Source: Oscillospiraceae bacterium (lineage in GTDB: Bacteria; Bacillota; Clostridia; TANB77; CAG-508). Taken from it: DNA of 64,000 nucleotides. Positions 21,541 to 21,647 of the stretch are shown piece by piece. The notes below the pieces were generated by a model. The model saw only the letters and a program-made list of their open reading frames with translations, had not been told where the DNA came from and searched no databases. The stretch covers positions 23,761-87,760 of the forward strand of contig WRFS01000002.1 of NCBI GenBank assembly GCA_009778695.1, read 5' to 3'. Numbering within the stretch: position 1 is the stretch's first letter; each line of letters begins with the position of its first letter. A program made the position numbers and the translations under genes.

Positions 21541-21647
21541 GTTTACGAACATGCACGAACATATACGAACATGCACGAACATGCACGAACATGCACGAAC
21601 ATGTACGAACATATACGAACTACCTACACGAACATGTACGAAACACC
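21541..21647 (+). repeat. Array 1: ten copies of the ACGAAC box, eight of them exactly 10 bp apart (NNNNACGAAC)
   Basis: gtttACGAAC atgcACGAAC atatACGAAC atgcACGAAC x3 atgtACGAAC atatACGAAC tacctacACGAAC atgtACGAAacacc. Confidence 0.95.

What the first reader, a model, noticed from the sequence alone, without database searches (positions are those of the whole stretch)
21541..21647. Three helically phased (10-bp) GTTCGT box arrays share one architecture, each placed over the -35 region of a regulator-linked promoter
**Seen.**
- Array 1 (21541..21647) has 10 boxes, array 2 (26734..26798) has 5-6 and array 3 (35291..35368) has 7.
- Read from the GGTG end, all three begin GGTG-TTTCGT-A.AT-GTTCG.-.TAGGT.-GTTCGT, with box spacing of 10 then 13 bp. 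They then continue with a variable number of exact 10-bp repeats (ATGTTCGTNN).
- Each array lies between the terminator of the upstream gene and a downstream gene. The GGTG-proximal box sits just upstream of a TATACT/TATATT-like -10, and there is no good -35.
- Arrays 2 and 3 precede the two receiver-less Spo0A_C genes. Array 1 precedes the peptide ORF and kinase, just after the Spo0A-like regulator.

**Established.** Spo0A binds 7-bp 0A boxes (TGTCGAA), often overlapping the -35 of activated promoters. The box here (TGTTCGT) is related but distinct.

**Inference.** The arrays are co-operative, same-face binding platforms for the element's Spo0A_C paralogues. The variable copy number suggests slippage-tunable promoter strength.
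Basis: partly seen in the sequence, partly recalled or inferred. Interest (0 to 1): 0.75.

Follow-up and report, generated by a model that had tools for sequence, protein, structure and literature searches.

The report
Expandable repeat operators for Spo0A-like regulators
Three promoters in a low-GC island of an uncultured spore-forming Clostridia bacterium carry 5 to 10 copies of a 10-bp box built on one shared three-box core. They look like multiplied docking sites for a Spo0A-like regulator that belongs to a peptide/kinase signalling cassette I found no description of.

Summary
Three arrays of ACGAAC/GTTCGT boxes have 10, 5-6 and 7 boxes. All share a proximal core: box, 13 bp, box, 10 bp, box, then 11-13 nt to a -10 hexamer, with no usable -35. 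I found a fourth, unexpanded core (20573..20601) at the promoter of the Xre-type gene divergent from the Spo0A-like response regulator (RR). The core occurs four times in the window and never in 300 simulated windows.

The same core lies at the equivalent Xre promoter of a 63%-identical RR locus (L206), and upstream of a 63%-identical homologue of the 165-aa Spo0A_C gene (L217). In both, the boxes are conserved and the spacers have diverged.

The RR belongs to a conserved cassette: Xre, RR, a 13-17 aa peptide gene and a roughly 490-aa kinase.

My best reading is that the core is the operator of a Spo0A-family protein, most likely the phosphorylatable RR, acting at activator-dependent promoters. 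The extra boxes are recent, independent tandem expansions. The receiver-less Spo0A_C genes are targets and possibly co-binders.

"All on one face" is not exact, and tunable promoter strength could not be tested. I class it as a new variant of a known kind. No binding experiment exists.

The parts
21545..21647 (+). Array 1: ten ACGAAM boxes (spacings 10 x7, 13, 10) ending in CACC. The proximal three boxes form the shared core.
21655..21660 (+). Candidate -10 (TATATT), 11 nt downstream of the proximal box of array 1. No -35 match (ACATGT, 0/6).
   Evidence: read from the sequence
21720..21764 (+). 14-aa peptide ORF MWNAIWNMFTWLIR with a ribosome-binding site. It is conserved in position in seven related cassettes.
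21789..21858 (+). Terminator after the peptide ORF. Its 3' arm carries the -35 of a near-consensus promoter (TTGACC-17-TATAAT) for the kinase. L206 has the same layout.
21899..23378 (+). Multi-TM GHKL histidine-kinase gene, split into 153-aa and 347-aa ORFs by a 1-nt frameshift near 22340. Relatives have an intact gene of 484-493 aa.
20594..21487 (+). Spo0A-like response regulator (receiver plus Spo0A_C). Probable start is the ATG at 20699. The receiver residues D10, D55, T87 and K109 are invariant in the family.
20573..20601 (-). Site 4: the unexpanded three-box core (ACGAAC-13-ACGATA-10-ACGAAC on the - strand). It lies 13 nt upstream of the -10 (TGATAAAAT, 20554..20562) of the Xre gene and is conserved in L206.
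20201..20539 (-). Xre-type HTH gene divergent from the regulator; part of the conserved cassette.
26734..26799 (-). Array 2: two tandem copies of the 33-bp three-box core (26734..26766 and 26767..26799, 26/33 identical).
26719..26724 (-). Candidate -10 (TATACT), 13 nt downstream of the proximal box of array 2.
26691..26718 (-). 28-bp AT palindrome between the -10 and the ribosome-binding site of the 118-aa gene. It is either an operator or a 5' hairpin.
26318..26674 (-). Receiver-less Spo0A_C protein (118 aa); first gene of an operon of membrane-anchored or secreted proteins.
35291..35363 (-). Array 3: seven boxes (spacings 10 x4, 13, 10) with the shared core proximal. It is identical in a second assembly (L203).
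35276..35281 (-). Candidate -10 (TATACT), 13 nt downstream of the proximal box of array 3.
35248..35275 (-). Second copy of the 28-bp AT palindrome, with one compensatory change relative to 26691..26718.
34736..35233 (-). Spo0A_C protein of 165 aa with a 55-aa N-terminal extension that is not a receiver domain; first gene of a long operon.

Best explanation
The 33-bp core (three direct ACGAAC-type boxes at 13-bp and 10-bp steps, ending 11-13 nt before a -10 hexamer) is the operator of a Spo0A-family DNA-binding domain. The binder is most likely the phosphorylatable Spo0A-like response regulator (RR) encoded at 20699..21487.

**Proposed mechanism**
1. When phosphorylated by the adjacent kinase, the RR binds head-to-tail to boxes one helical turn apart, as Spo0A does on paired 0A boxes.
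2. Bound there, it substitutes for the missing -35 and recruits RNA polymerase.
3. It thereby switches on four targets: the small peptide gene (a feedback loop), the two operons led by receiver-less Spo0A_C genes, and the Xre gene next to its own gene.
4. The boxes distal to the core are recent tandem expansions that arose separately at each promoter. Arrays 1 and 3 grew by 10-bp (and 30-bp) units; array 2 grew by duplication of the whole 33-bp core.
5. The expansions add upstream docking sites without changing the distance from core to -10. They would raise occupancy or cooperativity and rank the promoters by box number (10 > 7 > 5-6 > 3).

**Shown:** the anatomy, the statistics, the conservation, the domain content and the cassette.
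**Inferred:** who binds, activation rather than repression, and any effect of copy number.
For: - **One core architecture.** It occurs four times in the window and never in simulations. All four cores face a downstream gene in the same orientation, at a fixed distance from a -10, with no -35.
- **Footprint in relatives.** L206_HTH has ACGAAC-13-ACGATA-10-ACAAAC followed by TGATAAAAT. L217 has CGAAC-13-ACGAAC-10-ACGAAC followed by 13 nt and TATACT. The boxes are kept and the spacers differ.
- **Regulatory module more conserved than the genes.** The promoter plus 5'UTR of arrays 2 and 3 is 60/66 identical, while the two genes are 30% identical in protein.
- **A conserved cassette.** L206 and all other cassette loci have Xre, RR, a peptide ORF and a kinase. 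L206 shows no receiver-less Spo0A_C gene in 10 kb.
- **The RR looks functional.** It has an intact receiver with invariant D10, D55, T87 and K109, a Spo0A_C domain and a confident model (pLDDT 85).
- **Established knowledge.** Spo0A dimers bind two direct 0A boxes 3 bp apart (PMC2731898). The isolated Spo0A DNA-binding domain binds its targets without phosphorylation, and Spo0A contacts G2, C4 and G5 of TGTCGAA (PMC3485338). The box here keeps a CGAA core.
- **Independent expansion modes** in the three arrays.
Against: - No binding data of any kind exist.
- The kinase gene in this window is frameshifted, so the RR may not be phosphorylated here.
- The peptide promoter in L206 has only two good boxes and two degenerate ones.
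- More distant cassettes (L207, L210, L212, L214, L215) show different and less clear repeats. Co-variation of box with recognition helix was not demonstrated.
- The array in L217 sits in front of a homologue of the 165-aa Spo0A_C gene, which fits autoregulation by that protein equally well.
- The recognition helix of the 118-aa protein is the most Spo0A-like of the three (8/17 identical to Spo0A), and the box keeps the C4 and G5 positions that Spo0A contacts.
- Transcription start sites are unknown, so the -10 assignments are inferred.
Confidence: 0.55

Rival explanations
1. The receiver-less Spo0A_C proteins (118 aa and 165 aa) are the main binders. Each activates its own promoter through its array, forming a phosphorylation-independent positive-feedback latch. 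The full-length regulator plays at most a triggering role.
For: - Arrays 2 and 3 lie directly upstream of these genes.
- A 63%-identical homologue of the 165-aa gene has the same core upstream (L217).
- The isolated Spo0A DNA-binding domain is active without phosphorylation (PMC3485338).
- Their recognition helices are closer to that of Spo0A than the RR's helix is, and the box keeps CGAA.
- The kinase is broken in this window.
Against: - The core also sits at the Xre promoter and at the peptide promoter of the cassette, and in L206, where no receiver-less gene is seen.
- Two homologues of the 118-aa gene and one of the 165-aa gene have no array upstream.
- The two proteins share only 4 of 17 recognition-helix positions, yet they would have to read the same box.
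Confidence: 0.25
2. Only the three-box core is functional. The distal boxes are neutral products of replication slippage or unequal exchange at a short tandem repeat. They have no selected effect on promoter strength.
For: - Relatives manage with three boxes or fewer (site 4, L206).
- The distal units are nearly identical within an array but differ between arrays (GC-type in array 1, AC/AT-type in array 3), as expected for recent slippage.
- No copy-number variation that tracks any phenotype is known.
Against: - Expansion happened at all three cargo or peptide promoters of one island, by two different mechanisms (10-bp units and a 33-bp unit).
- The added units keep the full box consensus and the helical register.
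- Among the loci seen here, the site at the cassette's own Xre promoter has not expanded in either element that carries it.
Confidence: 0.3
3. The boxes are bound by the Xre-type HTH protein of the cassette, which would act as a repressor of the island promoters.
For: - The core lies at the Xre gene's own promoter, which is typical of autoregulated CI/Cro-like repressors.
- The Xre gene is always part of the cassette.
Against: - Xre/Cro-family proteins normally bind inverted repeats as dimers, whereas these are strictly direct repeats at a 10-bp step.
- The promoters lack a -35, which argues for an activator.
- A separate 28-bp palindrome downstream of the -10 in two of the promoters is a better candidate site for such a protein.
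Confidence: 0.07
4. The arrays are centromere-like or iteron sites, comparable to parC of plasmid R1 or tubC. They would serve partition or replication of an extrachromosomal form of the element.
For: Arrays of about 10-bp direct repeats that overlap a promoter and are bound cooperatively by a small DNA-binding protein are the hallmark of type II/III partition sites (my own knowledge, not tested here).
Against: - No ParM, ParA, TubZ or Rep gene lies next to any array or elsewhere in the 19-36 kb stretch (Pfam scans).
- There are four sites rather than one.
- Each site is positioned relative to a -10.
- The DNA lies between chromosomal genes.
Confidence: 0.03
5. The boxes are half-sites of the Gram-positive LexA (Cheo) box CGAACNNNNGTTCG, which would tie the island to the SOS response.
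For: The unit CGAACAT equals one half of the Cheo-box consensus (my own knowledge).
Against: - All boxes in an array point the same way.
- No palindromic CGAAC-N4-GTTCG exists anywhere in the window, even with one mismatch allowed.
Confidence: 0.02

Closest known systems
Spo0A and its 0A boxes (Bacillus and Clostridium)
   Same: - The DNA-binding domain family is the same (Pfam Spo0A_C in all three proteins).
- The boxes are 7 bp, in direct repeat, one helical turn apart (two boxes separated by 3 bp, PMC2731898).
- The sites overlap the -35 region of activated promoters.
- The isolated domain is active without phosphorylation (PMC3485338).
   Different: - The box is (A/G)(T/C)ACGAAC, i.e. TGTTCGT on the other strand, not TGTCGAA. 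It matches at 3-4 of 7 positions in either orientation.
- There are up to ten boxes in a row instead of one or two pairs.
- The regulator scores 77 bits against the Spo0A equivalog model, whose cut-off is 200.
- It is paired with its own kinase and peptide gene.
- Canonical 0A boxes are not enriched in the window.
PhoB pho boxes and other OmpR/PhoB-type class II activator sites
   Same: Direct repeats with a period of 10-11 bp replace the -35 and end about 10 bp upstream of the -10. Binding is cooperative and head-to-tail (my own knowledge).
   Different: The DNA-binding fold is different (winged helix versus Spo0A_C), and such sites usually have two to four repeats, not ten.
Phage- and MGE-borne truncated spo0A homologues
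   Same: - Receiver-less Spo0A effector domains are carried by mobile DNA of spore formers (PMC10294663).
- PF08769 is enriched in Firmicutes mobile elements (bioRxiv 10.1101/214213).
- PHROG families 24603 and 37855 match these proteins.
   Different: Those reports give no binding sites, no regulatory circuit and no partner two-component system. They propose action on the host sporulation regulon.
Peptide-sensing two-component quorum systems (Agr, Com, Blp, Fsr)
   Same: A small peptide gene lies next to a multi-TM GHKL kinase and a response regulator. The peptide promoter carries direct repeats for that regulator, which gives an autoinduction loop.
   Different: - The regulator is Spo0A-like, not LytTR.
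- The peptide is 13-17 aa with no leader.
- No AgrB- or ComAB-type processing or export gene is present in the cassette.
parC / tubC centromere repeat arrays
   Same: Many roughly 10-bp direct repeats overlap a promoter and are bound cooperatively by a small DNA-binding protein.
   Different: There is no partition NTPase, there are four separate promoter-linked sites, and the location is chromosomal.

Membership tests
Spo0A orthologue (NCBIfam TIGR02875) | Whole-protein score at or above the equivalog cut-off (200 bits) | tested here: not met
   the RR scores 77 bits, the 118-aa protein 49 bits and the 165-aa protein 48 bits.
Spo0A_C domain proteins (Pfam PF08769) | Match above the gathering score (25 bits) | tested here: met
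   scores of 49, 63.6 and 59.5 bits; the 118-aa protein aligns to 1LQ1 and 1FC3 at E = 1e-7.
Two-component response regulator | Receiver fold with the acidic pocket, phospho-acceptor Asp, and conserved Thr and Lys | tested here: met
   Response_reg at 43.9 bits. D10, D55, T87 and K109 are invariant in 21 family members; the model matches Spo0A receiver structures with TM 0.85-0.89.
0A-box operator | Core sequence TGTCGAA | tested here: not met
   The boxes are ACGAAC/GTTCGT, with 3-4 of 7 matches in either orientation. TGTCGAA occurs 5 times in the window against 3.2 expected, and none is in the arrays.
0A-box operator | Boxes in direct repeat, 10 bp start to start | tested here: met
   The reference geometry is from PMC2731898.
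Activator-dependent (class II type) promoter | A -10 is present, no -35 is present, and the activator site overlaps -35 | tested here: met
   Read from the sequence. The hexamers 17 nt upstream of the -10 match TTGACA at 0-3 of 6 positions. None of the array promoters appears among the 60 best consensus sigma-70 matches listed for 20-36 kb (67 weaker ones were not shown).
Activator-dependent (class II type) promoter | Transcription depends on the bound activator | not testable with these tools
   This needs reporter assays or in-vitro transcription.
Contingency (phase-variable) repeat locus | Copy number differs between cells or strains | tested here: inconclusive
   The only other assembly of array 3 (L203, Logan SRR10512950) is identical and is probably the same sample. 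L217 is cut inside its array.
Partition centromere / iteron array | An adjacent partition NTPase or replication initiator | tested here: not met
   Pfam scans of the ORFs of 100 aa or more between 20 and 36 kb found none.
LexA (Cheo) box | Inverted repeat CGAAC-N4-GTTCG | tested here: not met
   zero matches with up to one mismatch.
Agr/Com-type peptide quorum-sensing system | A peptide precursor with a leader, plus a dedicated processing or export gene and a LytTR regulator | tested here: not met
   The peptide ORFs are 13-17 aa with no leader. The cassettes contain only Xre, RR, peptide and kinase. The regulator is of the Spo0A_C type.

The most novel reading that the evidence does not exclude
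Uncultured Clostridia carry an undescribed signalling module made of four genes: an Xre regulator, a Spo0A-like response regulator, a leaderless 13-17 aa peptide and a divergent multi-TM kinase.

In this reading the regulator polymerises head-to-tail on operator arrays that grow and shrink in 10-bp steps. In this island it drives receiver-less Spo0A effector domains, which in turn rewire the host (for example its sporulation genes) or the island's own cargo operons. The array length would set the threshold at which each promoter fires.
Probability: 0.3. Interest if true: 0.8.

Novelty: new variant of a known kind. Interest (0 to 1): 0.58.

Why it matters
Truncated Spo0A effector domains on phages and other mobile DNA of spore formers are documented, but nobody knows what they bind or how they are controlled (PMC10294663).

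This locus offers a concrete cis-element, a fixed promoter architecture and a candidate upstream signalling cassette. All of these can be tested with a handful of purified proteins and reporter constructs.

If the box number sets sensitivity, the locus would be a natural example of promoter tuning by expansion of an activator-site array in one-helical-turn units. That differs from the classical spacer-length phase variation.

It also adds a Spo0A-type regulator to the short list of output domains used by peptide-linked two-component systems.

Tried and rejected
**Searches that found nothing useful**
- Megablast of 20 kb of the window against PLSDB and INPHARED gave no match.
- A generic three-box pattern in IMG/VR gave more than 120 hits. 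All were unrelated 10-bp repeats, and none lay next to a Spo0A_C gene by tblastn.
- The proximal-pair pattern CGAACATNTACGAAACACC in 185,579 species genomes gave nine single chance matches and no array.
- The pattern ACGAACATNN x2.6 in JGI metagenomes gave 68 hits, mostly repeats in high-GC contigs unrelated to this low-GC island. None lay next to a Spo0A_C gene. L155 has the same unit but sits beside a ribosomal protein gene.
- The core pattern in IMG/VR gave eight chance hits.
- Searching IMG/VR with the Spo0A_C alignment gave one distant phage gene that has canonical-looking 0A boxes and no array.
- Searching IMG/VR, INPHARED and PLSDB with the RR gave nothing beyond true spo0A.

**Relatives without arrays**
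- Homologues of the 118-aa protein (L001, L003) and one homologue of the 165-aa protein (L216) lack arrays.

**Rejected ideas**
- LexA boxes.
- Enrichment of canonical 0A boxes.
- Partition or replication repeats, because no NTPase or Rep gene is present.
- Coding repeats, because a period of 10 is not a multiple of 3 and the overlapping ORFs are repeat artefacts.
- Assembly artefact, because the arrays are shorter than the assembler's k-mer of 141 (inferred from the contig name) and array 3 was assembled identically a second time.

**Attempted but not achieved**
- Showing that box sequence co-varies with the recognition helix across the cassette family. There were too few loci, and the motifs in the distant ones were ambiguous.

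Full report
**1. What is in the sequence**

Read towards the downstream gene, all three arrays consist of boxes of consensus (A/G)(T/C)ACGAAC(A)(T).

| Array | Coordinates | Strand | Boxes | Start-to-start spacings (bp) |
|---|---|---|---|---|
| 1 | 21545..21647 | + | 10 | 10 x7, 13, 10 |
| 2 | 26734..26799 | - | 5 good plus a degenerate sixth | 13, 10, 10, 13, 10 |
| 3 | 35291..35363 | - | 7 | 10 x4, 13, 10 |

The statistics are as follows.
- GTTCGT occurs 28 times in the window against 8.1 +/- 3.1 in shuffles.
- A two-box pattern occurs 19 times against 0.9 expected.
- Tandem Repeats Finder reports period 10 for arrays 1 and 3, and also period 30 for array 1.
- 22 of the 77 ACGAAM boxes in the window lie within 287 bp.

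**2. One shared core, and a fourth copy**

The three proximal boxes of every array have the same layout: box, 13 bp, box, 10 bp, box. They are followed by 11-13 nt and then a -10 hexamer. The hexamers are TATATT at 21655..21660, TATACT at 26719..26724 and TATACT at 35276..35281.

A fourth copy of this core, without any expansion, lies at 20573..20601. It faces the Xre-type gene 20201..20539, 13 nt from an extended -10 (TGATAAAAT). That gene is divergent from the Spo0A-like response regulator.

With a degenerate box definition, the core occurs exactly four times in the window. It occurred zero times in 300 first-order Markov simulations.

The hexamers 17 nt upstream of the -10 elements match TTGACA at 0-3 of 6 positions. 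None of the array promoters appears among the 60 best consensus sigma-70 matches listed; 67 weaker ones were not shown. Each array begins right after a terminator hairpin (the one before array 2 was read by eye at 26809..26835).

- The 13-bp step puts the proximal pair about 100 degrees out of phase with the distal run, so not all boxes share one face.
- Array 2 is not a run of 10-bp units. It is a tandem duplication of the whole 33-bp core, with 26 of 33 positions identical.

**3. The proteins**

Pfam finds Spo0A_C in the 297-aa ORF (with a receiver domain), in the 118-aa protein and in the 165-aa protein.
- None of them is a Spo0A orthologue. They score 77, 49 and 48 bits against TIGR02875, whose cut-off is 200.
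- The 118-aa protein aligns to the Spo0A effector-domain structures 1LQ1 and 1FC3 at E = 1e-7.
- The response regulator (RR) has the invariant receiver residues D10, D55, T87 and K109.
- Its AlphaFold model has pLDDT 85. Its N-terminal half matches Spo0A receiver structures with TM 0.85-0.89.
- The 118-aa and 165-aa proteins are 30% identical to each other and only about 22% identical to the RR.
- The recognition helices of the three differ strongly. That of the 118-aa protein is the closest to Spo0A, with 8 of 17 positions identical.

**4. Context: a conserved cassette**

The window comes from a metagenome contig of 97.9 kb. The bacterium is low in GC and carries cotJA and cotJB, so it is a spore former. 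The arrays lie in a stretch of about 18-36 kb with lower GC (0.26 against 0.31) next to a serine recombinase gene.

The RR has more than 120 homologues at 35-63% identity. It has 73 representative clusters at E <= 1e-30 among 1.84 billion proteins.

In every locus I could read (L206, L207-209, L210, L212-213, L214, L215), the neighbourhood is the same. A divergent Xre gene is followed by the RR, then a 13-17 aa ORF with a ribosome-binding site, then a multi-TM protein of about 490 aa with a weak GHKL signature.

| Locus | Peptide |
|---|---|
| window | MWNAIWNMFTWLIR |
| L206 | MWQAVWNMIAFWVR |
| L207 | MWWELLEYIRKMFGR |
| L210 | MWKAFLDYFSKMFR |
| L212 | MSFEEWIRYILGL |
| L214 | MWSQMIQWINCWVGLK |
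| L215 | MSWWEEYLEYLKRLLGA |

In the window, a 1-nt frameshift splits the kinase gene into two ORFs. After the peptide ORF comes a terminator whose 3' arm holds the -35 of a near-consensus promoter for the kinase. This holds both in the window and in L206.

I found no description of this cassette in the paper library. It has no member in INPHARED, PLSDB or IMG/VR.

**5. Evidence from relatives for the core**

In L206 (RR 63% identical) the Xre promoter carries ACGAAC-13-ACGATA-10-ACAAAC followed by TGATAAAAT. The same middle box (ACGATA) is kept. The peptide promoter in L206 has the same 10-13-10 phasing but only two good boxes.

L217 is a 710-bp contig from a sister sample. It encodes a 63%-identical homologue of the 165-aa protein. 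It starts inside an array that reads CGAAC-13-ACGAAC-10-ACGAAC-TACCTTATAAGAT-TATACT.

Across the seven aligned modules, the boxes and the distances are kept while the spacers diverge.

Between arrays 2 and 3, the stretch from the core to the start codon is 60/66 identical, although the genes are about 59% identical in DNA and 30% in protein.

By contrast, two homologues of the 118-aa gene and one of the 165-aa gene have no array upstream. Scans of species genomes, metagenomes and viral contigs found no other array of this kind. They returned only unrelated 10-bp repeats not linked to Spo0A_C genes.

**6. Mechanism**

Established knowledge:
- Spo0A~P dimers bind two 7-bp 0A boxes separated by 3 bp, often overlapping promoters (PMC2731898).
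- Spo0A contacts G2, C4 and G5 of TGTCGAA.
- The isolated effector domain binds its targets without phosphorylation (PMC3485338).

The box here keeps either a CGAA core (one orientation) or TGT (the other). It is therefore related to the 0A box but distinct from it, and canonical 0A boxes are not enriched in the window.

The direct-repeat geometry, the position over a missing -35 and the exclusive linkage to Spo0A_C genes make a Spo0A-family activator the most economical binder.

The unexpanded core belongs to the cassette itself and is conserved in L206, a 10-kb contig without receiver-less paralogues. I therefore favour the phosphorylatable RR as the common binder. On this view the peptide gene, the two Spo0A_C-led operons and the Xre gene form its regulon.

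The receiver-less proteins may act further downstream or compete at the same boxes.

The distal boxes look like recent, independent expansions. Arrays 1 and 3 grew by 10-bp and 30-bp units of different sub-types, and array 2 grew by a 33-bp unit. These expansions leave the distance from core to -10 untouched. Whether they change promoter output is not known.

**7. Rivals considered**

- **Neutral slippage** of the distal boxes remains possible.
- **Xre as the binder** is unlikely for strictly direct repeats. A 28-bp palindrome downstream of the -10 in arrays 2 and 3, with one compensatory change, is a better candidate site for such a protein.
- **Partition or iteron arrays** lack any NTPase or Rep gene nearby.
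- **LexA half-sites** are excluded because no palindromic Cheo box exists in the window.

**8. Novelty**

Receiver-less spo0A homologues on phages and mobile elements are already known (PMC10294663; bioRxiv 10.1101/214213). So are direct-repeat operators of response regulators. Three things are new here:
- the specific box and its 33-bp core;
- its multiplication to as many as ten copies at three promoters of one island;
- its link to a peptide-kinase-regulator cassette I found no description of.

I class it as a new variant of a known kind. Everything about binding and function remains inference.

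Noticed in passing
window 20201..23378; L206, L207-L209, L210, L212-L215: A conserved four-gene cassette: an Xre HTH gene, a Spo0A-like response regulator, a 13-17 aa W/F-rich peptide ORF and a multi-TM GHKL kinase of about 490 aa. The regulator family has 73 clusters at E <= 1e-30. It is absent from the phage, plasmid and IMG/VR collections, and I found no paper describing it.
   Followed up: partly
window 22335..22360: The kinase gene is split by a 1-nt frameshift at the motif RFEN|GFSF. It is not in a homopolymer run. Relatives have an intact gene. This is either a pseudogene or a strain variant.
   Followed up: partly
window 21789..21858; L206 about 4030..4110: The terminator after the peptide ORF overlaps a near-consensus promoter (TTGACC/TTGACT-17-TATAAT) for the kinase. 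The layout is conserved in a relative whose regulator is 63% identical.
   Followed up: partly
window 26691..26718 and 35248..35275: A 28-bp AT-only palindrome lies between the -10 and the ribosome-binding site of both receiver-less Spo0A_C genes. The two copies differ by one compensatory change (C-G to T-A). As an RNA hairpin it is weak (-7.8 and -5.5 kcal/mol), so it could instead be an operator.
   Followed up: partly
window 40617..40637, 55178..55197, 55249..55269: Three copies of a GC-rich hairpin (GGGCGAAC-AAT-GTTCGCCC). Two (40617..40637 and 55249..55269) are preceded by a shared AT-rich flank of about 40 nt. This is a REP- or MITE-like repeat unrelated to the arrays, although it contains the same CGAAC word.
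   Followed up: no
window 23415..26083 and 26893..34308: The operons behind the two Spo0A_C genes encode membrane-anchored or secreted proteins. These include a ricin-type lectin and DUF4825, DUF4362 and DUF3221 proteins. Some share shuffled modules, for example ESGTGEITKITTGEIAKKYKYNIYYYGLKNV in 30410..31258 and 32637..33674, with a diverged copy in 23415..23936.
   Followed up: no
window 36894..37670: An ORF with an Rhs-associated core domain (66.8 bits). It is probably an orphan toxin-tip module at the edge of the island.
   Followed up: no
window 9114..19209: Two large serine recombinases (9114..10670 and 17740..19209) flank a GH25 endolysin, an RtcB ligase and an AbiEii-like ATPase. This looks like a degraded prophage or a second island next to the one studied.
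   Followed up: no
L210 927..3824: Another cassette locus carries, just upstream, a GH25/LysM lysin, a 118-aa Spo0A_C gene and two further receiver-plus-Spo0A_C genes. Clustering of several Spo0A_C paralogues with this cassette therefore recurs, here without box arrays.
   Followed up: partly
L133 2300..2400: A phage-contig Spo0A_C gene (26% identical) has TTTCGACAAAC and TTTCGATTTGTC upstream. These look like canonical 0A-type boxes rather than the box studied here.
   Followed up: no
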